Shown: piece after piece, positions 1 to 47,592 of the stretch
How the letters are laid out: the number at the start of each line of letters is the position of its first letter
Position numbering within the stretch: the first letter of the stretch is position 1
Assembly: GCF_050920415.1 (NCBI RefSeq)
Contig: NZ_CP169309.1
DNA: 64,000 bases
Source of the DNA: Escherichia coli
GTDB taxonomy: Bacteria; Pseudomonadota; Gammaproteobacteria; Enterobacterales; Enterobacteriaceae
Reading direction: 5' to 3' (one strand)
Program-made: the position numbers and the translations under genes
Notes under the pieces: generated by a model
What the model saw: only the letters and a program-made list of their open reading frames with translations
Databases searched by the model: none
What the model was told of the DNA's origin: nothing

Positions 1-17
1 ACGGATCTGGAGGTAAC

Positions 18-1067
18 GTGCGGGTATTACTTCGACCTGTACCGGTACCGGAACTCGGGGTGGTTATCGTTAAGCCAGGCCGTGAATCAATGTCGGTATT
101 CCATAACGACAGAGTACTGGTGGAGCCGGAACCAAAAAGCATGCGCGGTCTGCCGTCCGGAGTCGTCCCTACCGTTCGCCAGCCGCTGGCGGAGGATAAA
201 TCATTACTGCCGTTTTTCAGTAACAAACGAGTGATTCGTGCTGCTGGCGGCGCTGGTGCACTGTCTGACTGGTTACTGCGCCATGTCAAATCCTGCCAGT
301 GGCCTCATGGTGATTACCACCATAGTGAAACCGTTATTCACCGTTACGGTACCGGCGCGATGGTATTGTGCTGGCACTGCGACAACCAGCTGCGCGACCA
401 GACATCGGAATCACTCGAGCAACTTGCTCAACAAAATCTGACAGCCTGGATGCTTGAGGTTATACGTCACGCAATGAATGGCACGCAGGAGCGGGAATTA
501 TCGCTGGCTGAATTATCCTGGTGGGCGGTTTGCAATCAGGTGGTGGATGCTCTACCTGAGGCAGTATCACGTCGTTCGTTGGGATTACCGGTGGAAAAAA
601 TCCTCTCTGTGTATCGCGAGAGCGACATCGTACCGGGAGAACAGACAGCCACCAGCATACTGAAGCAGCGCACAAAAAATATTGCGCTACCGCCTCACGT
701 CCACCAGCAACAAAACTCACCACAGGAAAAGGCGGTGGTAAGCATCGCCGTTGATCCTGAGTCCCCGGAATCTTTCATGAAGCGACCTAAACGTCGCCGT
801 TGGGTAAATGAGAAATACACACGCTGGGTAAAGACACAGTCGTGTGCGTGCTGTGGTAAGCCAGCTGACGATCCCCATCACCTGATAGGTCATGGTCAGG
901 GCGGAATGGGAACAAAGGCCCACGATATTTTCACGTTACCGTTGTGTCGTAAACATCATAACGAGCTTCATGCAGAACCGTTGGCGTTCGAAGAAAAGCA
1001 TGGTTCTCAGGTTGATTTAATTTTTCGTTTTCTTGATCACGCCTTTGCAACCGGCGTGCTCGGATAA
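18..1067 (+). CDS. Prophage nin-region protein with C-terminal Cys/His-rich HNH-like motif (CxxC...HHL..H....C..HH...H); resembles E. coli prophage YdfU/DUF-type proteins; 5' end may lie outside window
   Basis: 349-aa ORF directly upstream of rusA and the Q-like gene; zinc-finger/HNH-like motif visible in translation; no stop upstream of position 18. Confidence 0.5.
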   Translation: MRVLLRPVPVPELGVVIVKPGRESMSVFHNDRVLVEPEPKSMRGLPSGVVPTVRQPLAEDKSLLPFFSNKRVIRAAGGAGALSDWLLRHVKSCQWPHGDYHHSETVIHRYGTGAMVLCWHCDNQLRDQTSESLEQLAQQNLTAWMLEVIRHAMNGTQERELSLAELSWWAVCNQVVDALPEAVSRRSLGLPVEKILSVYRESDIVPGEQTATSILKQRTKNIALPPHVHQQQNSPQEKAVVSIAVDPESPESFMKRPKRRRWVNEKYTRWVKTQSCACCGKPADDPHHLIGHGQGGMGTKAHDIFTLPLCRKHHNELHAEPLAFEEKHGSQVDLIFRFLDHAFATGVLG

Positions 1068-1076
1068 AAGAGGTTA

Positions 1077-1439
1077 TTGATGGGGATAGAATTTGTTTTG
1101 CCTTACCCGCCGACGGTAAATACCTACTGGCGTCGTCGTGGCAGCACATATTTTGTATCAAAAGCAGGGGAGCGTTATCGCCGGGATGTGGCGCTTATTG
1201 TTCGCCAGCAGCGGCTGAAATTAAATCTGTCCGGAAGGCTGGCAATAAAAATTATTGCAGAGCCACCGGATAAGCGCCGTCGTGACCTGGACAATATTCT
1301 GAAAGCACCACTGGATGCACTGACACATGCGGGACTGCTTATCGACGACGAGCAGTTTGATGAAGTTAATATTATGCGCGGTCAGGTTGTTCCCGGTGGT
1401 CGGCTGGGGATAAAAATCACAGAACTGGAGTGCGCATGA
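1077..1439 (+). CDS. rusA: RusA crossover junction endodeoxyribonuclease (Holliday junction resolvase)
   Basis: 120-aa translation recognisably matches the RusA family; typical nin-region position upstream of Q. Confidence 0.9.
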   Translation: MMGIEFVLPYPPTVNTYWRRRGSTYFVSKAGERYRRDVALIVRQQRLKLNLSGRLAIKIIAEPPDKRRRDLDNILKAPLDALTHAGLLIDDEQFDEVNIMRGQVVPGGRLGIKITELECA

Positions 1440-2101
1440 ATAACCAGTATTTACAGTTTGTGCGTGAGCAGCTCACGATCGCCACCGCTGATTTGAGTGG
1501 AGCAACAAAAGGTCAGCTTGAAGCCTGGCAGGAGAATGCCATGTTCAATACAGGGCGTTACAGACGTAAAAAAATCCGGTACCGCGATAAGGTCACTGGA
1601 AAAATAGTAACGCTGGATAATCCACCGATCCCGGGAAAGCAATCGCTGGCGAAAGGTTCATCAATTGCCCTGGTCAGTCCGGTTGAGTTTTCGACATCAT
1701 CATGGCGACGCGCCGTTCTGTCTCTTGAAGAACATCATAAAGCCTGGCTGCTGTGGTGTTACAGCGGTAGCATTTGCTGGGAGCATCAGATCGCGATAAC
1801 GCAGTGGGCGTGGATTGAATTTAATGCTCAATCCGGTACCAGAAAAATTGCAGGAAAAACTCTGGTGCGCCTGAAGACGTTGAGCTGGTTGGCGGCGCAG
1901 GCGGTAAAAGCTGAGCTTTTTGGTGGGGAAGGTTACGAATACCAGGAACTGGCGTTACTGGTGGGAGTAACAACCAAAAACTGGTCCAAGACATTTACTG
2001 GTCACTGGGTTGCAATGAAACACATTTTTCATCGGCTGGATAGTGAAGCTTTATTGTTAGTGGAGAGAACACGTTCAAAACAAAAGGCGGCATTTTCATA
2101 G
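1430..2101 (+). CDS. Putative late-gene antiterminator (Q-family by position)
   Basis: 223-aa ORF immediately upstream of a promoter plus short-transcript terminator (pR'/tR' arrangement) and the late region; assignment by synteny, sequence not confidently recognised. Confidence 0.45.
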   Translation: MRMNNQYLQFVREQLTIATADLSGATKGQLEAWQENAMFNTGRYRRKKIRYRDKVTGKIVTLDNPPIPGKQSLAKGSSIALVSPVEFSTSSWRRAVLSLEEHHKAWLLWCYSGSICWEHQIAITQWAWIEFNAQSGTRKIAGKTLVRLKTLSWLAAQAVKAELFGGEGYEYQELALLVGVTTKNWSKTFTGHWVAMKHIFHRLDSEALLLVERTRSKQKAAFS

Positions 2102-2108
2102 CAAAGTA

Positions 2109-2137
2109 TTGCAAAAGTAGATTAAAACGCATATATT
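2109..2137 (+). promoter_or_regulatory. pR'-like late promoter (TTGCAA -17 bp- TATATT) immediately after the Q-like stop
   Basis: -35 TTGCAA at 2109-2114, 17-bp spacer, -10 TATATT at 2132-2137. Confidence 0.4.
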
Positions 2138-2188
2138 TCGTGTAAATCTGATATTTTGCCGTTTTTATACGTGATGGCAAAGCTAGTA

Positions 2189-2214
2189 AAACCCGCGACC
2201 GAGCGGGTTTTTTA
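2189..2214 (+). terminator. tR'-like rho-independent terminator (aaacccgc-gaccga-gcgggttt + T-run)
   Basis: Perfect 8-bp stem, 6-nt loop, followed by T-run; about 50-70 nt downstream of the pR'-like promoter, as for lambda 6S RNA. Confidence 0.6.
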
Positions 2215-2287
2215 TCCCCCCAAAAAATGGCATAGACATTAAACGTGATGACGATTGTGCCAATACTTTCTCCATCAATGACGCCCC

Positions 2288-2317
2288 TTGACTGCATGGA
2301 ATCCAATTTGTTATGTA
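2288..2317 (+). promoter_or_regulatory. Candidate sigma70 promoter for the moron membrane-protein gene (TTGACT ... TGtTATGTA)
   Basis: Consensus-like -35 TTGACT at 2288-2293; extended -10-like TGnTATGTA about 18 bp downstream; lies after tR' and before the ATG at 2356. Confidence 0.3.
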
Positions 2318-2355
2318 ATATGTGTTGATATTTTTGAGTTGTTAATGGTGTTACT

Positions 2356-3069
2356 ATGAATGACAGTGCTCTGCTCAGAAACTCTTCACTTTTTGTTGCT
2401 TATATGGGCTGTCTAGGATGGGGAAGCGCTTATTTCTATGGATGGGGTACTTCATTTTACTATGGCTTTCCATGGTGGGTTGTCGGGGCTGGTGTCGATG
2501 ATGTTGCACGAAGTTTGTTTTATGCTGTGACAGTTATCGTTATATTCCTTATTGGATGGGGAGTTGGTATTGTTTTCTTTTTGGGCATAAAACAAAAGCG
2601 CAATATACAAAATTTGAGTTTTATCCGGCTTTTTCTCGCGATATTGCTGCTTTTTATTCCACCTGTTCTGGAGTTTTCGGTAATTCATCAGCATGTTGAG
2701 CCAGATGTACTGATTTTCTGCATTCTTGCTGCCTTTACAATCACGCTTTTTGTCAGGTCTGGAAGAAGACTTGTTTCAGTCAAATGTTTTTCGGAAATGT
2801 CTTTTATTCGCCATCACCGAATTGAGTTCATGATGGCTGGGTTTATGATTTATTTCTGGGCATTCTCTCTTATTGCCGGTTGGTACAAACCACAGTTTAA
2901 GAGGGAATATCAGGCGATCCACTATGAGAATGTATGGTATTACATTATTGCGCGTTATGATGATCGTCTGGTGTTATCGAAATCATACAGGAGTGGGGGT
3001 AAGAAATTCGTTATATTTAATAGCGGAAATATTAATGATTTTGAAATTAATACTATCAGAGTGCGTTAA
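2356..3069 (+). CDS. Uncharacterised integral membrane protein (about 4 predicted TM helices, Trp/Tyr/Gly-rich N-terminus, about 60-aa soluble C-terminal tail); moron
   Basis: 237-aa ORF, AT-rich codon usage unlike flanking phage genes, hydrophobic segments visible in translation; no family recognised. Confidence 0.7.
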   Translation: MNDSALLRNSSLFVAYMGCLGWGSAYFYGWGTSFYYGFPWWVVGAGVDDVARSLFYAVTVIVIFLIGWGVGIVFFLGIKQKRNIQNLSFIRLFLAILLLFIPPVLEFSVIHQHVEPDVLIFCILAAFTITLFVRSGRRLVSVKCFSEMSFIRHHRIEFMMAGFMIYFWAFSLIAGWYKPQFKREYQAIHYENVWYYIIARYDDRLVLSKSYRSGGKKFVIFNSGNINDFEINTIRVR

Positions 3070-3243
3070 AATTTCTTGAGTAATGAAGATTTTTACTGCC
3101 CGGCATTGAGCGGTTTTTTTATGCCAGAAAAATGGTGTGGTACATAAAATGTGCTGGTGGTTATTAATACCGGTCTTTCAGCTTGCTGGCTTTTTCGACA
3201 AGAGTTATTGGTATGTCACGTTAACCAATAAAGAGAAAAAGAC

Positions 3244-3441
3244 ATGCTAAAACAGCAGGATATGACCGAAACAGCCAGAGTGGTGTTTAATGAATTAAGC
3301 GTCACTGAACCGGCAACAGTTGGGGAAATTGCGCAGAATACTTACCTTTCACGCGAACGCTGCCAGTTAATACTGACCCAGCTTGTGATGGCGGGTCTGG
3401 CAGATTATCAGTTCGGTTGTTACAGACGCCTTCCGCAGTGA
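3244..3441 (+). CDS. Small (65 aa) putative winged-helix/HTH DNA-binding protein
   Basis: Helix-turn-helix-like segment (ATVGEIAQNTYLSRERCQLILTQLVMAGLA); own rho-independent terminator overlapping the stop. Confidence 0.45.
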   Translation: MLKQQDMTETARVVFNELSVTEPATVGEIAQNTYLSRERCQLILTQLVMAGLADYQFGCYRRLPQ

Positions 3442-3452
3442 AGGCTTTTTAC
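3428..3452 (+). terminator. Rho-independent terminator (gccttc-cgcagt-gaaggc + TTTTT)
   Basis: 6-bp perfect stem plus T-run overlapping the stop of the 65-aa ORF. Confidence 0.5.
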
Positions 3453-3591
3453 TTTGTGGTAATGGGCGGCTGGTGGGTGTTAGCGGCACCTGCCAGCCAT
3501 CTGCTCATGTGTTGAGGTCACAAGCAAACCTCAGGCCCATCTGCTTTGCGCAAAAGCGGTATGAGCCTATCAGAGAAGTGCTTATTGATCT

Positions 3592-4677
3592 ATGGCTAAT
3601 ACTGTAAAAATATCCAGTTGTGAGTTAATCAACACTGATTGCCTGGAATTTATCCAGACCTTATCGGAAAACTCTGTCGATCTTATAGTCACAGACCCGC
3701 CATATTTTAAAGTGAAGCCCGAGGGCTGGGATAACCAGTGGAAGGGCGACGATGATTACCTAAAATGGCTGGACCAGTGTCTGGCTCAGTTCTGGCGGGT
3801 ACTGAAGCCTGCCGGAAGTCTTTACCTGTTTTGTGGTCATCGCCTGGCATCTGATATCGAAATCATGATGCGTGAGCGCTTTAATGTGCTGAACCACATT
3901 ATCTGGGCGAAGCCGTCCGGACGCTGGAACGGGTGCAACAAAGAAAGCCTGCGGGCGTATTTCCCGGCAACAGAGCGCATTCTGTTTGCCGAACATTATC
4001 AGGGGCCATATCAGCCAAAAAATGCCGGCTATGCGGCAAAGGAGCGCGAGCTTAAACAACACGTCATGGCCCCGCTGATTTTTTACTTTCGTGATGCGCG
4101 TGAATCACTGGGAATAACGTCCAAACAGATAGCGGAAGCCACCGGAAAGAAAAACATGGTGTCGCACTGGTTTGGTACCAGTCAGTGGCAGTTACCGAAC
4201 GAAGCTGATTACAGAAAACTGCAGGCGCTGTTCGCGCGTGTTGCAGAAGAAAAACACCAGCGTGGGGAGCTGGCAACGCCACACCAACTGCTGGTCAGCA
4301 CATACAGTGAACTGAACCGGCAATATGCCAGTCTGCTTGAGGAATACAAATCTCTGCGGCGTTATTTTTCTGTATCGGCCGCCGTTCCTTATACGGATGT
4401 CTGGACGCATAAGCCCGTACAGTATTATCCGGGTAAGCATCCCTGCGAAAAACCGGCGGATATGTTGCGTCAGATAATTTCTGCCAGCAGTCGTCCGGGG
4501 GATGTGGTTGCGGATTTTTTTATGGGATCGGGGGCAACAATAAAAGCAGCAATGGGATTGGGGCGTCGCACGATTGGGGTTGAACTTGAGTCCGGGCGTT
4601 TTGAACAAACAGTTGGTGAAATATTGGTGCTGAACGATAAATTGCGAAATGCACAATTAGATAAGAACAGGAGCTAA
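3592..4677 (+). CDS. DNA methyltransferase, beta-class (N6-adenine or N4-cytosine); apparently orphan
   Basis: Motif IV DPPY near N-terminus (LIVTDPPYF), motif I FxGxG-like (DFFMGSGAT) near C-terminus; no restriction endonuclease ORF adjacent. Confidence 0.85.
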   Translation: MANTVKISSCELINTDCLEFIQTLSENSVDLIVTDPPYFKVKPEGWDNQWKGDDDYLKWLDQCLAQFWRVLKPAGSLYLFCGHRLASDIEIMMRERFNVLNHIIWAKPSGRWNGCNKESLRAYFPATERILFAEHYQGPYQPKNAGYAAKERELKQHVMAPLIFYFRDARESLGITSKQIAEATGKKNMVSHWFGTSQWQLPNEADYRKLQALFARVAEEKHQRGELATPHQLLVSTYSELNRQYASLLEEYKSLRRYFSVSAAVPYTDVWTHKPVQYYPGKHPCEKPADMLRQIISASSRPGDVVADFFMGSGATIKAAMGLGRRTIGVELESGRFEQTVGEILVLNDKLRNAQLDKNRS

Positions 4678-5197
4678 TCCTCGATTAATATCTAAGCCAA
4701 GCAGGATGCTTGGAAGTTCTGATATATTCTTATCGTTTTTCGGTATTTAAAACTGATTTTCGCTGGTTGCGAAAGCACGTGGTCGGGCACTGCGTTCACA
4801 CATGCAGGAGGGTGTGAAGTCAGCTTTTTTTCTGTGTATTCAGATGGCGTTCTGATTCTATAACGAGTTACGTGGACATCAGGGATGGAGAGAATAGGAA
4901 CGCCATCTTAATACATTTTCCCCGTTTATTTGATATATCTTCCGGATAAGGGATTAGGTCTGGTTTTTTATGTCATTCAATAACGCTCTTCTATACTGTA
5001 TACAATACTTTATCCTGGCAGTGTGTTTAAAACCTGAACTTATCCTTTGTTTCGTTTATAGACAGAAGGGTTAATATCGACTTATCATCAGCAGGATGGC
5101 AACAGATGTGTAAGCAGCTGGTCACCAGTTATACTTCAGTGGTACTTCTGAGTGCTTCTCTCCGTGAAATGATTATCATCCAGATGACAGGAGTAGA

Positions 5198-5476
5198 GTG
5201 AATATTGATGATATTTCCAGGTGCTCCAGCTTGTTGCAGCGTATTGAGGATGTTAATGCTGAACGAGCCAGGGCCTTTAGTCGTTTGACAGTTATATTTT
5301 CTACCCCTGATCGCCTTTCAGGAAAGAACATTGTTTTATTAAACAGTGATGCCATCCATAAGGTTTTTGAAGAGTTCATGGCTGCTAATTCAGAATTGCT
5401 GGCTCTTGTTGAGGAATACAACGAGATAGCCAGCCGTGTCGGTATGGATGAATTCAACGTCATACTTCGTGGATAA
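5198..5476 (+). CDS. Hypothetical protein (92 aa), GTG start with AGGAG RBS
   Basis: ORF preceded by AGGAG at 5187-5191 and followed by a strong terminator. Confidence 0.45.
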   Translation: MNIDDISRCSSLLQRIEDVNAERARAFSRLTVIFSTPDRLSGKNIVLLNSDAIHKVFEEFMAANSELLALVEEYNEIASRVGMDEFNVILRG

Positions 5477-5499
5477 AAACATGCTTCATATTTTCTGTT

Positions 5500-5524
5500 A
5501 GCTCGCTACGGCGAGCTTTTTTTG
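5500..5524 (+). terminator. Rho-independent terminator (agctcgc-tacg-gcgagct + T-run)
   Basis: 7-bp perfect stem, tetraloop, T-run of 8. Confidence 0.65.
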
Positions 5525-5657
5525 TATCTGAGCCACACCTGGCGCACATCAAAAACACAGAGCCTTTCAGGAGGTGCTTACGGGATTGTCAGTGTGACTT
5601 TCACTGTGGGCTGGTAACCATCTGGCGCAGGCTCGTCTACGCAAAGGAAAAGTCACG

Positions 5658-6083
5658 ATGTTAGGTATTTTCAAAAAGAAAACCCGCAAGGCCATCACAG
5701 AAGTGAAGAAGATGGAGAACCGTGATGCGGTGGAGGCGACCGTCTGGGGCGCATATTCCATTGCATATGCCGACGGCACCTGCGATGCGAAAGAAATCGC
5801 AGTACTGGAGAAAACTATTGCTGCGCTTCCTGCTTTTGCACCGTTCTCTGGTGAGATTGCCCAGATGAGCGCCAATATCCGCGCCCGTTATGAAGCGTCA
5901 CCGCGTAGTGCGAATGCGCATGCATTGCGTGAGCTGGCTGATGTGGCGGGGACAACTGAGGCGGTTGACGTGCTTTGCCTCTGTCTGGATATCGCTGATC
6001 AGGATGGCATTGGTCCGGATGAAGAAGCGCAGCTCAAGAAAATTGCACAGGCGCTTCAGTTACCACTGGAGCAGTATCTGTGA
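5658..6083 (+). CDS. TerB-like (tellurite-resistance TerB / DjlA N-terminal domain family) protein
   Basis: 141-aa helical protein whose acidic C-terminal motif (LCLCLDIADQDGIGPDEEAQLKKIAQAL) is typical of TerB-domain proteins. Confidence 0.55.
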   Translation: MLGIFKKKTRKAITEVKKMENRDAVEATVWGAYSIAYADGTCDAKEIAVLEKTIAALPAFAPFSGEIAQMSANIRARYEASPRSANAHALRELADVAGTTEAVDVLCLCLDIADQDGIGPDEEAQLKKIAQALQLPLEQYL

Positions 6084-6232
6084 AAAGTGCGGGCCTTGTG
6101 CTGGCTGCCATCCTGTTGTTTCTGGTAGTGGCAGTGGATTTCACTGGATGGCTGATGTCGGTACTGGCTGATGGTGTGCTGGTGGCGATGGTAACGGTCT
6201 TACTCTGGCCTTTACTTCGCAAATCTGAATAA
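6080..6232 (+). CDS. Possible small hydrophobic membrane protein (about 50 aa, GTG start overlapping the TerB-like stop)
   Basis: Unannotated frame reading VKSAGLVLAAILLFLVVAVDFTGWLMSVLADGVLVAMVTVLLWPLLRKSE; two hydrophobic stretches; start codon uncertain. Confidence 0.3.
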   Translation: MKSAGLVLAAILLFLVVAVDFTGWLMSVLADGVLVAMVTVLLWPLLRKSE

Positions 6233-6317
6233 ACAGCCTACAAAAGGTATCTGCGGGTACCTTTGATAAAGTTTTTTAGGGCCGCTGATGGTCCTTTTTA
6301 TTTACAGGAGAATAAAT

Positions 6318-6710
6318 ATGTCTGAACCCTTATCCGGTTCCGGCACTGCTGTGGCGCTCGGCGGGGCGACGGTATTCGGGCTGTTTACCGGGACGGATTT
6401 CGGGATTGTATTTGGTGCGTTCGCTGGTGCGTTATTTGTGGCAACAATGCCGCAGACACTTTCAGCCTGGCGTGTGGCTGCACATTTTCTGGTGTCCTTT
6501 ATTGTTGGTGTGCTTGGGGCCCGTGGTGTGGCCGGTTACATGGCGGAACGTATTGGGTTTAACAGTGCTTCCGTTGATGCGTTGTGTGCGGTCCTGGTGT
6601 CGGTGCTCTCAGTAAAAGTCCTGTCATTCATCCACCAGCAGGAGATTACATCACTGGTATCCGGTCTGTTCTCCCGTCAGCGTGGAGGAGGTGGTGGTAA
6701 TGACAAATAA
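6318..6710 (+). CDS. Putative holin (multi-TM membrane protein, Gly-rich C-terminus)
   Basis: ATG at 6318 preceded by AGGAG; about 3 hydrophobic helices; lies upstream of the endolysin. Confidence 0.55.
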   Translation: MSEPLSGSGTAVALGGATVFGLFTGTDFGIVFGAFAGALFVATMPQTLSAWRVAAHFLVSFIVGVLGARGVAGYMAERIGFNSASVDALCAVLVSVLSVKVLSFIHQQEITSLVSGLFSRQRGGGGGNDK

Positions 6711-6978
6711 TCTTCCAGGATTACTGAATGCGGCGTTATGTACGGTTATCGTACTGACGCTTTTTTTCTACCGCAGAAAAGAGTCCCGACACAAACCGCT
6801 GATATCGTGGTGCGCCTGGTGTCTGATGCTGTTGTATGCGATAACGCCGTTAAGTTATCTCTGTGGTCATCCGTTGCCGGCAGACTGGCTGGTAGTGATG
6901 CTGAACCTGGTGTTTGGTGTCATGGTAGTGCGTGCGCGCGGTAATGTTTCAAAAATTTTTGCTTTCCTGAGTGGCTGA
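6700..6978 (+). CDS. Putative holin/antiholin-like small membrane protein
   Basis: 92-aa hydrophobic protein (start MTNNLPGLL) overlapping the preceding gene's end and the endolysin start. Confidence 0.5.
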   Translation: MTNNLPGLLNAALCTVIVLTLFFYRRKESRHKPLISWCAWCLMLLYAITPLSYLCGHPLPADWLVVMLNLVFGVMVVRARGNVSKIFAFLSG

Positions 6979-7525
6979 TATGAAATCGAGAGATGAAATT
7001 TTTGATGAAATCCTCGGAAAAGAGGGGGGGTATGTCAGTCATCCTGACGATACAGGCGGAGCGACGAAGTGGGGAATTACTGAAAAAGTGGCGCGCGCGC
7101 ATGGTTACCGTGGTGATATGCGTGATTTGAGCCGCGGGCAGGCTCTGGAAATCCTTGAGGCAGACTATTGGTATGGACCTCGTTTTGACCAGGTGGCAAA
7201 CCTGTCTCCTGATATTGCTGCAGAACTGTGTGATACCGGGGTAAACATGGGGCCGTCGGTAGCCACAAAAATGCTTCAGCGCTGGCTGAATGTGTTTAAT
7301 CAGAAGGGAATGCTGTATCCGGACATAGTTACAGACGGGGGGATCGGGCCGCGAACCATTAATGCGTTACGTTCTTATCTGAAAAATCGCGGCAGGGATG
7401 GCGAACTGGTACTGGTGAAAGCCCTGAACTGTACGCAGGGTGAGCGTTATCTGGCGCTGGCAGAGAAACGCGAGGCTAACGAGTCGTTTGTCTATGGCTG
7501 GATGAAAGAGCGCGTTGGTTTATAA
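6971..7525 (+). CDS. Endolysin, glycoside hydrolase family 108 with C-terminal peptidoglycan-binding domain
   Basis: N-terminal EILGKEGGYVSHPDDTGGATKWGI motif characteristic of GH108 lysozymes. Confidence 0.85.
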   Translation: MADMKSRDEIFDEILGKEGGYVSHPDDTGGATKWGITEKVARAHGYRGDMRDLSRGQALEILEADYWYGPRFDQVANLSPDIAAELCDTGVNMGPSVATKMLQRWLNVFNQKGMLYPDIVTDGGIGPRTINALRSYLKNRGRDGELVLVKALNCTQGERYLALAEKREANESFVYGWMKERVGL

Positions 7526-7533
7526 ACTCATCG

Positions 7534-7558
7534 AAAAGGTCACTTCGGTGGCTTTTTT
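7534..7558 (+). terminator. Rho-independent terminator with UUCG tetraloop (aaaaggtcac-ttcg-gtggc + T-run)
   Basis: Stem with G-U wobble pairs, UUCG loop, T-run of 6, immediately after the endolysin stop. Confidence 0.5.
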
Positions 7559-7726
7559 ATTGTTCAAAAAACGAAAGAACGGAGGTACGTATGTACGCAC
7601 TGAAAAAGATTACGGTAACTGAAGATGGTCGTCAGTAGACTGGCCCCCTGAATCTCCAGACAACCAGTATCACTTAAATAAGTGATAGTCTTAATACTAG
7701 TTTTTAGACTAGTCATTGGAGAACAG

Positions 7727-8092
7727 ATGATTGATGTCTTAGGGCCGGAGAAACGCAGACGGCGTACCACACAGGAAAAGATCGCAATTGTTCAGCAGAG
7801 CTTTGAACCGGGGATGACGGTCTCCCTCGTTGCCCGGCAACATGGTGTAGCAGCCAGCCAGTTATTTCTCTGGCGTAAGCAATACCAGGAAGGAAGTCTT
7901 ACTGCTGTCGCCGCCGGAGAACAGGTTGTTCCTGCCTCTGAACTTGCTGCCGCCATGAAGCAGATTAAAGAACTCCAGCGCCTGCTCGGCAAGAAAACGA
8001 TGGAAAATGAACTCCTCAAAGAAGCCGTTGAATATGGACGGGCAAAAAAGTGGATAGCGCACGCGCCCTTATTGCCCGGGGATGGGGAGTAA
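7727..8092 (+). CDS. insC: IS2 transposase OrfA (InsC)
   Basis: Translation [41 protein letters not shown]... matches IS2 InsC. Confidence 0.9.
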
Positions 8093-8955
8093 GCTTAGTC
8101 AGCCGTTGTCTCCGGGTGTCGCGTGCGCAGTTGCACGTCATTCTCAGACGAACCGATGACTGGATGGATGGCCGCCGCAGTCGTCACACTGATGATACGG
8201 ATGTGCTTCTCCGTATACACCATGTTATCGGAGAGCTGCCCACGTATGGTTATCGTCGGGTATGGGCGCTGCTTCGCAGACAGGCAGAACTTGATGGTAT
8301 GCCTGCAATCAATGCCAAACGTGTTTACCGGATCATGCGCCAGAATGCGCTGTTGCTTGAGCGAAAACCTGCTGTACCGCCATCGAAACGGGCACATACA
8401 GGCAGAGTGGCCGTGAAAGAAAGCAATCAGCGATGGTGCTCTGACGGGTTCGAGTTCTGCTGTGATAACGGAGAGAGACTGCGTGTCACGTTCGCGCTGG
8501 ACTGCTGTGATCGTGAGGCACTGCACTGGGCGGTGACTACTGGCGGCTTCAACAGTGAAACAGTACAGGACGTCATGCTGGGAGCGGTGGAACGCCGCTT
8601 CGGCAACGATCTTCCGTCGTCTCCAGTGGAGTGGCTGACGGATAATGGTTCATGCTACCGGGCTAATGAAACACGCCAGTTCGCCCGGATGTTGGGACTT
8701 GAACCGAAGAACACGGCGGTGCGGAGTCCGGAGAGTAACGGAATAGCAGAGAGCTTCGTGAAAACGATAAAGCGTGACTACATCAGTATCATGCCCAAAC
8801 CAGACGGGTTAACGGCAGCAAAGAACCTTGCAGAGGCGTTCGAGCATTATAACGAATGGCATCCGCATAGTGCGCTGGGTTATCGCTCGCCACGGGAATA
8901 TCTGCGGCAGCGGGCTTGTAATGGGTTAAGTGATAACAGATGTCTGGAAATATAG
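8050..8955 (+). CDS. insD: IS2 transposase OrfB (InsD), DDE integrase-type
   Basis: 301-aa translation matches IS2 InsD; overlaps insC in the -1 frame as in IS2. Confidence 0.9.
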
Positions 8956-9236
8956 GGGCAAATCCAGTCAGGTTGAGGAAGTGCATGTCCTGGGGGGATA
9001 TGTATCGTATGGAGTTTTACCCGCGTAATACCCATCTGGCAGCAAAAATTGAGTATTGCCGGAACGGGAATATTTCATGTTTGCAGGTAGAGAAAACGGA
9101 TGAGGCTTATATCACTACGCTGAACGGCGATACGATGTCAGCGCCAATGATATAAGACAGTAATTCACCATTTGGATTGTCCGCTCCACCCAACATGTTG
9201 TTTCCTTAAGGTTCCTACACCACAAAGGGAACACTC

Positions 9237-11202
<1,966 letters not shown>

Positions 11203-11419
11203 TGACCAATAGCGGACATTAAAAATGGCGAAAAACGGCCAATAATCTTGGCGTTGACAACGATGCGTTGCATCTGTCGCGGCGACAGTAAAGCCCGGAA
11301 TGAAATGGCCAGATGTCGTACTCATACCAGTGAATAACAAGTAAAACCCCGGCGGCTGAAACAACCAAGGGGTTAACAGTGTAAATAAAACTGCCCATAT
11401 TGATGGGCAGCGCATGTAA

Positions 11420-11713
11420 TTATTGTGAGCAATAGACCCGAGCTTCAAGCGGAGTATAAATGCCTAAAGTAATAAAACCGAGCAATCCATTTACGAATGT
11501 TTGCTGGGTTTCAGTTTTAACAACTTTATCTGCGCCACCACAAATTTTGGCTGCATCGACAGTTTTCTTCTGACCAATTCCTGAAACGAAGAAATGATGA
11601 GTGATGGTTTCCTTCGGTGTTACTGTTGTAGGTTTGTTTTCAACTGTAAACGTCTGTTGAGCACATCCAGAGATAAGCAGCGCCAGTGTGAAAGTGAGTA
11701 GCGTTTTTTTCAT
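11420..11713 (-). CDS. bor: Bor lipoprotein (lambda Bor/Iss family)
   Basis: 97-aa translation with lipobox LLISGC, recognisably matching lambda Bor; minus strand between lysis region and cos as in lambda. Confidence 0.9.
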   Translation of the reverse strand: MKKTLLTFTLALLISGCAQQTFTVENKPTTVTPKETITHHFFVSGIGQKKTVDAAKICGGADKVVKTETQQTFVNGLLGFITLGIYTPLEARVYCSQ

Positions 11714-11937
11714 CGTGTGATTCCCGTTGTGTTTTTAAGTTTGGTGCATCGTATTTGTGGAAATTTAAACAAAACCTAAACAATGAGTTGAAATCTCATA
11801 TTGTTAATGTTTATTAAAGTATGCCAGATGTGCTGTATCTTTACTGTATACCCAGATTAACTATGGCCACAGCACCGACTGGTAACTCCTGTGTGGGAGT
11901 GCCGGCTACTGAGGCGGATCAAACCGGACGTTATGGT

Positions 11938-12348
11938 TTAGCGTGGAAAAATTTGAGTCGTGTTCTGGATGCTTTCGGTAAACAATAATGAGTTGTCAAA
12001 GGTATAGTAATATCTTTTGTGTTCGTGGATATTTGTAACCCATCGGAAAACTCCAGCTTTAGCCAGATTTACCCTGTATTCATGAAATGTGATTTCTCTT
12101 GATTTCAACTTATGAAGGTAAGTTTCTATAAGTCGCGTGTCTCTGCAAAAGCTAACATGAATAACATCATGGAAACCTTTTATTAACACCGTGTTATCGC
12201 TCTCAAATACAATGTGAATATTACCTGTGGCTAAATAGTAAATGTAATGTGAGACATTGTGGCGTTTTAGTTCAGAGTAAAACCGGTCACAGTTTAAATC
12301 TTTCCGCACTTGATCAAATATTTCTTTAAAAATGGCAACCTGAGCCAT
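11938..12348 (-). CDS. Uncharacterised protein (136 aa), AT-rich moron
   Basis: Minus-strand ORF in the bor-cos interval; AT-rich codon usage; no family recognised. Confidence 0.5.
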
Positions 12349-12907
12349 CAGTATCCCCTTGTATATGATATGAGGGGCGTAGTCTGCATGAGTGCTTTTA
12401 ATACTGCAATCTGGTCAGATGTCTTTATCGTATATTGATGATTATTGTCGGATAGTATGAGGTTTTCTCAACTCATGGAAATACCGGAAGGTGCGAAAAT
12501 TACTAAGTAAGAAGAGTTACATAAGCCCTTCATACAGTGAAGGGCTTATGTAATCTTAGAAATAAAAAACCGGTCATAGGGAGCTACACAGAACCGGTCG
12601 GCGAAGACCGCCAATACCACCCATGCATCGATGCAACATACTAATGACAATAGCTGCTATTGATGTAAATGCAATGTTATGCATCGACGAAAATAAAAAA
12701 CCGGCAGGGGAAATCCATTGAAGACTTGCCGGTGGCAAAAGTTGCCAATGCTTTTATAACCGTAGTCACAGAGTTACGAAGTGCAACACCGACTGCTGCT
12801 GGTATATGGATGAATGGCGTTTCAATGATGTGCATCATTCAAATCACAAATAGTATTGATACTTATTCTCGGTTTTGCGGGTCCTTTCCGGTGATCCGGC
12901 AGGCTAC

Positions 12908-12919
12908 GGGGCGGCGACC
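12908..12919 (+). other. cosN cohesive-end site (GGGCGGCGACCT), lambda type; cosB expected in the following ~180 bp
   Basis: 12-nt sequence GGGCGGCGACCT followed by AGCGGGTTTTCGCTATTTA, matching the lambda left end as recalled; lies just upstream of Nu1. Confidence 0.8.
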
Positions 12920-13597
12920 TAGCGGGTTTTCGCTATTTACGAGTTTTTTTGAGGTGATGGTTGTTGTTTTATCGTTTGATATATCTACTTGATAAGTAAT
13001 AAGAAAGAAAAATAAACACAACAACCTGATGATCTTTCTTATACGAAAAAGCATGTAAAATCAGAGGGTTTTACAAAAAACGTGGTTGTTGTATTGCTTT
13101 TTTGCCGGTGGTTTATGGAGGGGCTGTGGCCTTTTTATTGAATAAAAGCGACATGGCCTCCTCCATCGGTATCTCAGTACAGGCATTTGATAAATGGGGT
13201 GTTCCTCCTGTTGAGCGCCGGGGGAGAGAGGTTTTCTATGACGTTAAAACTGTACTGGAGATAGATCGCGAGCGACGTCAACAAAACCAGAAATCTTCAG
13301 GTGGTGAAAATGATCTTGAGGAAAGGCTACTTCAGGCCAGGGTTAACCTGACGGAAGAACAGGCTATTGCTCAGCGGTTAAAAAACCAGGTTGCAGAGCA
13401 TAAGGTGATTGATACAGCTTTCTCTATTTTTGCCCTGTCCCGGTTATCCGGAGAACTGGCATCTGTTTTGGACAGTATTCCGCTTTCGATGCAAAGAAAA
13501 TTCCCTGAATTGACAGGCAGACAATTGGCTTATCTAAAAGAGCTGGTTGCGAAGGGGGCTAATAAATGCGTTGAGTCCGCTGAAAAAATGAAGGAAT

Positions 13598-46443: not shown

Positions 46444-47343
46444 ATGTCGCGAAAAGATGGGGTGTTGGCGCTACTGGTAGTGGTCGTATGGGGGCTAAAT
46501 TTTGTGGTCATCAAAGTGGGGCTTCATAACATGCCACCGCTGATGCTGGCCGGTTTGCGCTTTATGCTGGTCGCTTTTCCGGCCATCTTTTTTGTCGCAC
46601 GACCGAAAGTACCACTGAATTTGCTGCTGGGGTATGGATTAACCATCAGTTTTGCGCAGTTTGCCTTTCTGTTTTGCGCCATTAACTTTGGTATGCCTGC
46701 TGGACTGGCCTCGCTGGTGTTACAGGCACAGGCGTTTTTTACTATTGTGCTCGGTGCGTTTACTTTTGGCGAACGGCTGCACGGTAAGCAACTGGCGGGG
46801 ATCGCGTTAGCGATTTTTGGCGTACTGGTGTTAATCGAAGATAGTTTTAACGGTCAGCATGTGGCGATGCTCGGCTTTATGTTGACCCTGGCGGCAGCAT
46901 TTAGTTGGGCGTGCGGCAATATCTTCAATAAAAAAATAATGTCACACTCAACGCGTCCGGCAGTGATGTCGCTGGTCATCTGGAGCGCATTAATCCCGAT
47001 CATTCCTTTCTTTGTTGCCTCGCTGATTCTCGATGGTTCCGCAACCATGATTCACAGTCTGGTTACTATCGATATGACCACCATCTTGTCTCTGATGTAT
47101 CTGGCATTTGTGGCGACAATCGTTGGTTATGGGATCTGGGGGACGTTACTGGGACGCTATGAAACCTGGCGGGTTGCACCGCTATCGTTACTGGTGCCTG
47201 TAGTTGGACTGGCAAGTGCGGCACTATTGCTGGATGAACGCTTAACGGGTCTGCAATTTTTCGGTGCGGTGCTCATTATGACCGGGCTGTATATCAATGT
47301 ATTTGGCTTGCGGTGGCGTAAAGCCGTGAAAGTGAGAGGCTAA
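46444..47343 (+). CDS. eamA: O-acetylserine/cysteine exporter EamA (YdeD)
   Basis: 299 aa from ATG 46444 (MSRKDGVLALLVVVVWGLNF...). Confidence 0.9.
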   Translation: MSRKDGVLALLVVVVWGLNFVVIKVGLHNMPPLMLAGLRFMLVAFPAIFFVARPKVPLNLLLGYGLTISFAQFAFLFCAINFGMPAGLASLVLQAQAFFTIVLGAFTFGERLHGKQLAGIALAIFGVLVLIEDSFNGQHVAMLGFMLTLAAAFSWACGNIFNKKIMSHSTRPAVMSLVIWSALIPIIPFFVASLILDGSATMIHSLVTIDMTTILSLMYLAFVATIVGYGIWGTLLGRYETWRVAPLSLLVPVVGLASAALLLDERLTGLQFFGAVLIMTGLYINVFGLRWRKAVKVRG

Positions 47344-47373
47344 AAAGCCCCGAGATGTCGGGGCCAGAATAAA

Positions 47374-47592
47374 CTATATAGCGTGTTGATTATAATAGGG
47401 CACGCCAAGCGCATCCGATTTATCACTGCCTGTGCTCATGTGGTTAAAATCAAATGGTGATTGTTCCGGTGATGGGGGAACAACCACCACATTGCCACAG
47501 GAAGTAACAACCGGCTGCGTGGTTTGTTCCGCAAAGCTCTGCGCAGAGAAGAGAATAAGCGCGGTTACCATTGCGGATAAAAGTGGTTTCAT
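47374..47592 (-). CDS. marB: Multiple antibiotic resistance protein MarB
   Basis: 72-aa translation MKPLLSAMVTALILFSAQSFA... recognised as MarB. Confidence 0.9.
   Translation of the reverse strand: MKPLLSAMVTALILFSAQSFAEQTTQPVVTSCGNVVVVPPSPEQSPFDFNHMSTGSDKSDALGVPYYNQHAI

What the first reader, a model, noticed from the sequence alone, without database searches (positions are those of the whole stretch)
11938..12348. AT-rich 136-aa minus-strand moron next to bor, flanked by hairpin terminators
Lambda carries accessory, non-essential genes in the bor-cos interval. This ORF has strongly AT-biased composition, is transcribed against the late operon like bor, and has no family I recognise. It is a candidate lysogenic-conversion or defence gene, separate from the Q-proximal cluster.
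Basis: inference. Interest (0 to 1): 0.5.

Follow-up and report, generated by a model that had tools for sequence, protein, structure and literature searches.

The report
Lambda-type ybcV/ydfO gene (DUF1398)
The ORF is real, but it is the well-known, still uncharacterised ybcV/ydfO-type accessory gene (DUF1398) that phage lambda itself and most E. coli lambdoid prophages carry next to bor, so it is an ordinary feature and not a new one.

Summary
The 136-aa minus-strand ORF at 11938-12348 exists and is AT-rich: 35.5% GC against 51% for the window. It lies 224 nt upstream of bor on the same strand and 561 nt from cosN. It matches Pfam DUF1398 (PF07166) over the full model, E 1e-42. It is 84% identical to phage lambda's own ORF lambdap78 and 85% identical to a DLP12-type YbcV. 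It matches the NMR structure of E. coli YdfO (PDB 2HH8) at E 3e-65, and RefSeq annotates it as WP_000079499.1, "DUF1398 family protein". Alleles are under purifying selection (median dN/dS 0.15). In 72 of 80 viral loci bor lies just downstream on the same strand. The protein has no signal peptide or membrane segment, no hit to a defence-system model, and a fold matched among solved structures only by YdfO. Published work shows that lambdap78 is dispensable for lambda growth. It also shows that ybcV/ydfO are stress- or regulator-responsive and were strongly derepressed when T4 MotB, which alters H-NS repression, was overexpressed. YdfO was still listed as uncharacterised in 2024. Verdict: already known and of low interest. 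It is most likely a conditionally expressed lysogen-side accessory protein that acts by binding; its molecular function is unresolved.

The parts
11938..12348 (-). DUF1398 (YbcV/YdfO-type) coding sequence, 136 aa plus stop; RefSeq WP_000079499.1
   Evidence: ORF list. Pfam PF07166 E 1e-42, model 1-119/119. PDB 2HH8 E 3e-65. 84% identity to lambda lambdap78. Median dN/dS 0.15. RefSeq annotation in a 100%-identical genome.
12354..12360 (-). Shine-Dalgarno-like AAGGGGA, 5 nt upstream of the ATG
   Evidence: Read directly from the sequence.
12444..12471 (-). Only sigma-70-like promoter match upstream of the ORF (TTGAGA-16-GACAAT, 9/12); weak, function not shown
   Evidence: Consensus scan. The number of such matches in the region (5) does not exceed the shuffle expectation (5.4). 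It lies at the edge of the block homologous to lambda and DLP12.
12409..12425 (.). ATCTGGTCAGATGTCTT, at the position of the PdhR box reported upstream of K-12 ybcV; one half-site is degenerate here (8/14 to consensus, against 10/14 in K-12)
   Evidence: Alignment with the DLP12-type upstream region. K-12 box sequence from PMC7660256. The match count is my own reading; binding is not tested.
12513..12557 (.). 16-bp perfect palindromic hairpin at the boundary between the bor-DUF1398 block and the cos-proximal segment
   Evidence: dG -26.2 kcal/mol, z -9.0. Homology to lambda ends at about 12467. Homology to phiSTEC1575-Stx2k, which lacks the block, starts at 12538.
11866..11915 (-). Imperfect hairpin just 3' of the stop codon, without a U-run; not a canonical terminator, so read-through into bor is possible
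   Evidence: dG -24.8, z -2.9. Not reported by the terminator scan.
11420..11713 (-). bor (Bor-family lipoprotein), the co-oriented downstream neighbour
   Evidence: ORF. RefSeq 'Bor family protein'. bor lies 228-295 nt downstream on the same strand in 71 of 80 viral loci and at 1608 nt in one more.
11390..11411 (-). Canonical intrinsic terminator after bor (9-bp stem, 5 G-C pairs, then UUUAUUU); plausible end of the leftward transcription unit
   Evidence: Terminator scan. dG -14.4, z -3.7.
12909..12920 (+). cosN cohesive-end sequence GGGCGGCGACCT; places the ORF at the right end of the packaged genome
   Evidence: Alignment with the lambda left end.

Best explanation
The ORF is this prophage's copy of the ybcV/ydfO gene. 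It is the same gene as phage lambda's ORF lambdap78 and a member of Pfam DUF1398.

Shown: it encodes a 16.4-kDa soluble protein with no signal peptide or membrane segment. The predicted structure has the YdfO fold, made of two structurally repeated helix-helix-strand-strand-strand units. The gene sits in a leftward-transcribed, AT-rich two-gene block (DUF1398 then bor) between the lysis cassette and cos. The block comes and goes among related phages, and the gene is under purifying selection.

From the literature: the lambda homologue is dispensable for plaque formation. The K-12 homologues are transcribed conditionally. ybcV needs PdhR for normal mRNA level. ybcV/ybcW rise more than 1000-fold when T4 MotB, which alters H-NS repression, is overexpressed. 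ydfO is induced by an ionic liquid. ybcV was among the 12 most strongly up- or downregulated genes in a copper-stress RNA-seq; the passage read does not give the direction. Overexpression changes host physiology: YdfO raises oxidative-stress resistance and YbcV gives a glycogen-deficient phenotype.

Inferred: it is a moron whose product acts in the cytoplasm of the lysogen, not in the virion or in lysis. It is probably normally silenced by H-NS because of its AT-richness and is switched on under particular stresses. It probably works by binding a host macromolecule or small ligand rather than by catalysis, and so shifts stress or stationary-phase physiology. The target is unknown.

Confidence by part: identity about 0.97; role as a lysogen-side accessory gene about 0.6; mode of action by binding about 0.3.

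For: Real gene. Median dN/dS is 0.15 over 21 unique alleles.

Module. bor lies downstream on the same strand in 72 of 80 IMG/VR loci. The block is absent from phiSTEC1575-Stx2k, which shares the cos-proximal 370 bp at 94%. GC is 35.5% against 51%.

Soluble. The maximum 19-residue Kyte-Doolittle mean is 0.68.

Non-essential in lambda. CRISPRi EOP is 1.9 (PMC10695390).

Conditional expression and phenotypes. PMC7660256, PMC4077768, PMC7827196, PMC2853380 and bioRxiv 10.64898/2026.03.12.711415.

Against: No experiment or computation here identifies a binding partner, a ligand or an activity. The overexpression phenotypes come from genome-wide screens and may be indirect. No promoter stands out: there is one 9/12 consensus match and no excess over shuffles. 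The PdhR box of K-12 is half degenerate here, so regulation in this prophage may differ. H-NS silencing is inferred from AT content and from MotB data for K-12 ybcV, not measured for this locus. Invariant polar residues in a diverse alignment (R15, T41, N43, R112, E125) leave a catalytic or ligand-binding site possible.
Confidence: 0.6

Rival explanations
1. It is an anti-phage defence or superinfection-exclusion gene expressed from the prophage.
For: It sits in a variable accessory slot, is AT-rich, and is oriented like the lysogen-expressed bor gene. Its function is unknown, so this reading is not excluded. The fold has no characterised relatives.
Against: No PADLOC family matches even at E<=1. 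It is a single small domain with no nuclease, ATPase, NAD-ase or membrane module. Five distant homologues are stand-alone genes beside housekeeping-type neighbours with no conserved partner (three in multi-kb loci, two in short contigs). Structure-level relatives are annotated DUF1398 across Bacteroidota, Proteobacteria and Firmicutes. None of the 5 papers holding 'DUF1398' nor the 17 E. coli papers holding 'ybcV' links the family to defence by title or abstract, and none of those read does.
Confidence: 0.1
2. It is the effector or toxin half of a two-gene module with the small YlcI/YnfO (DUF3950) protein encoded upstream in lambda, DLP12 and Qin.
For: In 49 of the 80 viral loci, all of the lambda/DLP12 type, ylcI lies 660 nt upstream on the same strand. 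In Qin-type prophages ynfO is directly upstream of ydfO and in frame, which produces read-through fusions (P0180, a cluster of 761 sequences). Lambda itself carries an unannotated YlcI homologue.
Against: This window and 18 related viral loci have no ylcI or ybcW homologue between the gene and cos, yet the gene is intact and 99-100% conserved in the five closest of them (L009-L013). Distant homologues have no such neighbour. An ASKA overexpression clone of ybcV was viable enough to be scored for glycogen content (PMC2853380).
Confidence: 0.08
3. It is a structural phage protein ('head protein' or 'envelope protein'), as several database labels say.
For: PHROG 413 is labelled 'head protein'. 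RefSeq lambda calls lambdap78 'head protein'. Other records say 'putative envelope protein'.
Against: The gene is on the strand opposite to the late operon. The protein has no signal peptide, lipobox or membrane segment. Knock-down in lambda does not reduce plating (EOP 1.9; PMC10695390). The family is widespread in non-phage chromosomal contexts. From my own knowledge, it is not among the established lambda virion proteins. The labels look like propagated annotation with no experiment behind them.
Confidence: 0.02
4. It is a chance ORF in AT-rich spacer DNA, not a gene.
For: The region is AT-rich and has no strong promoter match.
Against: Median dN/dS is 0.15. The Pfam match covers the full model. 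A homologue folds into a defined NMR structure (2HH8). About 1900 clustered homologues exist.
Confidence: 0.01

Closest known systems
Phage lambda ORF lambdap78 (NP_597781.1; lambda 47042-47575, complement)
   Same: 84% identical over all 136 residues. Same position between bor and cos and same orientation. The homologous DNA block runs from bor to about 120 bp upstream of the start codon.
   Different: RefSeq annotates lambdap78 as 177 aa. The extra 41 N-terminal residues have no counterpart here, where the frame is closed upstream of M1, so that extension is probably an over-call. Lambda also carries ybcW (lambdap79) and a YlcI homologue between this gene and cos. This prophage has neither.
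E. coli K-12 YbcV (DLP12 prophage) and the DLP12-type allele WP_001298896.1
   Same: 85% identical and 136 aa. The bor - ybcV order is the same, and about 125 bp of upstream sequence is shared.
   Different: DLP12 has ybcW divergent and ylcI upstream. The PdhR box reported for K-12 (PMC7660256) is only half conserved here.
E. coli YdfO (Qin prophage), PDB 2HH8
   Different: In Qin, ydfO follows ynfO directly; bor was not among the flanking genes listed for ydfO. The reported phenotypes (oxidative-stress resistance, ionic-liquid induction) were measured for ydfO, not for this allele.
Pfam DUF1398 (PF07166) at large, including E. coli YcgX and members in Bacteroidota and Firmicutes
   Same: Same domain, same length (about 130 aa), same predicted fold.
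   Different: The distant members examined (26-36% identical) are stand-alone chromosomal genes, not prophage morons; AFDB relatives fall to 15-24% identity.

Membership tests
Pfam DUF1398 (PF07166) / YbcV-YdfO family | Significant full-length match to the family HMM | tested here: met
   E 1.1e-42, score 145.3, residues 8-126 on model positions 1-119 of 119.
Pfam DUF1398 (PF07166) / YbcV-YdfO family | YdfO fold, as in PDB 2HH8 | tested here: met
Pfam DUF1398 (PF07166) / YbcV-YdfO family | Single-domain protein of about 130-140 aa | tested here: met
   136 aa, with the frame closed upstream.
Lambdoid bor-ybcV accessory block | Located between the lysis cassette and cos, co-oriented with bor and opposite to the late operon | tested here: met
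   bor lies downstream on the same strand in 72 of 80 viral loci.
Moron (autonomous accessory cassette, in the sense of Juhala et al. 2000; definition from my own knowledge) | Base composition different from the neighbouring phage genes | tested here: met
   35.5% GC against 56% for nu1 and the head genes.
Moron (autonomous accessory cassette, in the sense of Juhala et al. 2000; definition from my own knowledge) | Present or absent between otherwise related phages | tested here: met
   phiSTEC1575-Stx2k shares 12538-12905 at 94% but has no bor or DUF1398.
Moron (autonomous accessory cassette, in the sense of Juhala et al. 2000; definition from my own knowledge) | Own promoter and own terminator | tested here: inconclusive
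   Only one weak promoter-like match, with no excess over shuffles. There is no canonical terminator between this ORF and bor; the first one lies after bor. Transcription-start mapping is needed.
Known anti-phage defence systems (PADLOC-DB v2) | Match to any defence-protein model | tested here: not met
   0 families at E<=1.
Toxin-antitoxin pair with YlcI/YnfO (DUF3950) | Obligatory adjacent partner gene | tested here: not met
   No ylcI or ynfO homologue near the gene in this window; the only weak hit is at window 384-506, 27% identity, E 0.003. The partner is also absent from 18 further window-type viral loci.
Phage structural / envelope protein (database label) | Late-operon expression, export signal or virion association | tested here: not met
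   Opposite strand to the late operon. No hydrophobic segment. Non-essential in lambda. Virion association cannot be tested with these tools.

The most novel reading that the evidence does not exclude
DUF1398 proteins of lambdoid prophages, including lambda's own lambdap78, could be a so-far unrecognised single-protein effector with a fold of its own. Under particular stresses it would be switched on from an H-NS-silenced state. It would then either protect the lysogen against other phages or reprogramme host stationary-phase and stress physiology by binding a specific host factor. This would assign a function to one of the last unassigned ORFs of phage lambda. The gene block that holds it, together with bor and their flanks, matched DNA in 4682 of 5426 complete E. 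coli genomes.
Probability: 0.1. Interest if true: 0.5.

Novelty: already known. Interest (0 to 1): 0.12.

Why it matters

Tried and rejected

2. Conserved neighbours of distant homologues. Five look-ups showed no shared partner gene.

3. A hypervariable surface patch that would suggest an arms race. Differences from lambda looked clustered in residues 42-93. Entropy over 59 close alleles was modest and scattered, with dN/dS 0.15-0.4. Rejected.

4. Internal sequence repeat. The two structural halves show no detectable sequence similarity (score 25 against a shuffle mean of 26.8).

5. Nucleic-acid binding suggested by charge. pI ranges from 5.8 to 9.6 across homologues, so this has no support.

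6. A non-coding RNA in or around the locus. There was no Rfam match at E<=1 in 11000-13500.

7. NCBIfam gave only sub-threshold noise.

8. Two key lambda papers (Casjens & Hendrix 2015; Liu et al. 2013, ribosome profiling) are not held in the library. I therefore could not check whether lambdap78 is translated in lysogens.

Full report
**Observation.** The ORF listing gives an ATG-initiated ORF of 136 codons at 11938-12348 on the minus strand, exactly as reported. An AAGGGGA Shine-Dalgarno-like motif lies 5 nt upstream of the ATG (sequence). Stop codons 23 and 32 codons upstream close the frame. The ORF has 35.5% GC (GC3 36.5%), against 51.2% for the whole window and 56% for the adjacent packaging and head genes.

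bor (11420-11713) is 224 nt downstream on the same strand. nu1 and A start at about 13102 and 13598 on the other strand. The lambda cohesive-end sequence GGGCGGCGACCT is at 12909-12920. The ORF therefore lies at the right end of a lambda-like genome, 561 nt from cosN.

Two strong hairpins flank the ORF. One is at 11866-11915 (dG -24.8, z -2.9). The other is a 16-bp perfect palindrome at 12513-12557 (dG -26.2, z -9.0). Neither has the U-run of a canonical intrinsic terminator placed to end this gene's transcript. The canonical terminators on this strand are after bor (11390-11411) and upstream at about 12565-12600.

**What it is.** The protein matches Pfam DUF1398 (PF07166) over the entire model (E 1.1e-42). 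It matches PHROG 413 (E 1e-76) and the NMR structure of E. coli YdfO, PDB 2HH8 (E 3e-65). It is 84% identical over all 136 residues to phage lambda's own ORF lambdap78 (NP_597781) and 85% identical to a DLP12-type YbcV. A 100%-identical stretch in E. coli MFDS1022581 is annotated by RefSeq as 'DUF1398 family protein' WP_000079499.1, between 'Bor family protein' and 'terminase small subunit'. DNA similar to the 1.9-kb query spanning bor, this ORF and their flanks is found in 4682 of 5426 complete E. coli genomes, with a median of two places per genome. This is one of the commonest prophage ORFs in E. coli, and K-12 has three paralogues: ybcV, ydfO and ycgX (PMC3509220).

**Surroundings and modularity.** Homology to lambda runs from bor to about 120 bp upstream of the ORF's start, at window position ~12467. 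From 12538 to 12905 the window matches the cos-proximal segment of phage phiSTEC1575-Stx2k at 94%. That phage goes from its lysis genes to that segment with no bor or DUF1398. The palindrome at 12513-12557 sits at this junction.

In 80 viral loci, bor lies downstream on the same strand in 72 (at 228-295 nt in 71, at 1608 nt in one). Nineteen loci are of the window type, with no ybcW or ylcI and with nu1 at -754 or -755 where enough upstream sequence is held. Most of the rest are of the lambda/DLP12 type, with ybcW divergent at -286 and ylcI co-oriented at -660.

The window has no ybcW or ylcI homologue. An IS21-family element (9136-11259, 4-bp target duplication ACGA) is inserted 156 bp downstream of the bor stop codon. 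It does not touch the block. All this fits a leftward-transcribed accessory block of foreign composition, that is, a moron. Its own promoter is not established. The only sigma-70-like match (12471-12444, 9/12) is no more than shuffles give.

**What it does.** Nothing here or in the searchable literature assigns a molecular function.
- NCBIfam gave noise and PADLOC gave no hit.
- Five distant homologues are stand-alone chromosomal genes with no shared neighbour.
- Literature on the lambda homologue: CRISPRi knock-down of lambdap78 leaves plating unchanged (EOP 1.9; PMC10695390).
- Literature on expression in K-12: ybcV and ybcW mRNA fall about 10-fold in a pdhR mutant, and a PdhR box lies between them (PMC7660256). 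Both rise more than 1000-fold when T4 MotB, which perturbs H-NS silencing, is overexpressed (PMC7827196). ydfO is induced up to about 100-fold by an ionic liquid (PMC4077768). ybcV was among the 12 most strongly up- or downregulated genes in a copper-stress RNA-seq (bioRxiv 10.64898/2026.03.12.711415); the passage read does not say in which direction.
- Literature on phenotypes: YdfO overexpression is reported to raise oxidative-stress resistance (cited in PMC4077768). ybcV overexpression gives a glycogen-deficient phenotype (PMC2853380).
- ydfO was still listed as uncharacterised in the 2024 y-ome review (PMC11551758).

My best reading, partly inferred, is a cytoplasmic, non-structural, lysogen-side accessory protein. 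It is normally silenced, probably by H-NS, and conditionally induced. It would act by binding a host component and not by catalysis. I am about 97% confident of the identity, about 60% of the general role and about 30% of the mode of action.

**Rivals.**
- Defence or superinfection exclusion is not excluded, but it has no positive evidence and several points against it. Estimated at 0.1.
- A two-gene module with YlcI/YnfO is suggested by synteny in lambda, DLP12 and Qin and by read-through fusions (P0180). It is contradicted by the intact, conserved gene in partner-less prophages such as this one. Estimated at 0.08.
- The database labels 'head protein' and 'envelope protein' are contradicted by strand, sequence features and dispensability. 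Estimated at 0.02.
- A chance ORF is excluded.

**Comparison, novelty and verdict.** The ORF passes every membership test for DUF1398/YbcV-YdfO and for the lambdoid bor-ybcV block. It fails the tests for known defence systems, for an obligate TA pair and for a structural protein. It is already known: annotated, with a Pfam family and a solved paralogue structure. The only open question, what DUF1398 does, is a general one and does not arise from this window. Interest is 0.12.

Noticed in passing
window 9136-11259: An IS21-family element (istA/istB, both flagged as frameshifted in RefSeq) with terminal inverted repeats TGTCAGCGCC / TGTCAACGCC and a 4-bp target duplication ACGA (9132-9135 and 11260-11263). 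It is inserted just after the lysis genes, into or next to a frameshifted small ORF. Related prophages (L004) lack it.
   Followed up: partly
L002 3197-3388 (phage lambda NC_001416 48112-48303, minus strand): Phage lambda carries an ORF 98% identical to E. coli YlcI (DUF3950, YlcI/YnfO family) between lambdap79 and cos. The RefSeq lambda record does not annotate it.
   Followed up: partly
window 12538-12905: A cos-proximal segment with no annotated gene, 94% identical to phage phiSTEC1575-Stx2k and about 79% identical to phage cdtI. It holds two similar minus-strand stem-loops, each followed by UUUUUUAUUU (about 12565-12600 and 12691-12733). They look like leftward terminators with nothing obvious to terminate. 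There is no Rfam match.
   Followed up: partly
window 12513-12557: A 16-bp perfect palindrome (z -9) lies exactly at the junction between the bor-DUF1398 block and the cos-proximal backbone. Lambda and DLP12 have a shorter hairpin with the same CTGTATGAAG core at the corresponding place. It may be a module boundary or insulator.
   Followed up: partly
protein database hits P0155-P0265 (ENA contigs of about 3.5 kb): Dozens of 135-210-aa 'variants' of the lambda DUF1398 protein come from contigs of about 3.5 kb. By their length and their near-identity to lambda these look like assemblies of lambda spike-in or control DNA with sequencing errors; this is my inference and was not checked. They inflate the apparent diversity and create false N-terminal extensions.
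   Followed up: no
lambda NP_597781 (L002 2127-2660) compared with window 11938-12471: RefSeq's 177-aa version of lambdap78 has a 41-residue N-terminal extension with no counterpart in this homologue (stops upstream) or in YbcV/YdfO. It is probably an over-extended gene call. The product names 'head protein' and 'envelope protein' appear to be unsupported propagated labels.
   Followed up: partly
window ~1-8900 (L001 1-9600): The late-regulatory and lysis region of this prophage carries several other accessory genes: a zeta-toxin family protein, a Hok/Gef pseudogene, a DNA methyltransferase, a TerB-family protein, DUF3927, two holins and a GH108 lysin (RefSeq annotation).
   Followed up: no
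P0180 (233 aa; 761 member sequences): In Qin-type prophages ynfO (DUF3950) and ydfO (DUF1398) are co-oriented and in frame, so loss of the ynfO stop gives a fused protein. This hints that the two are co-transcribed there.
   Followed up: partly
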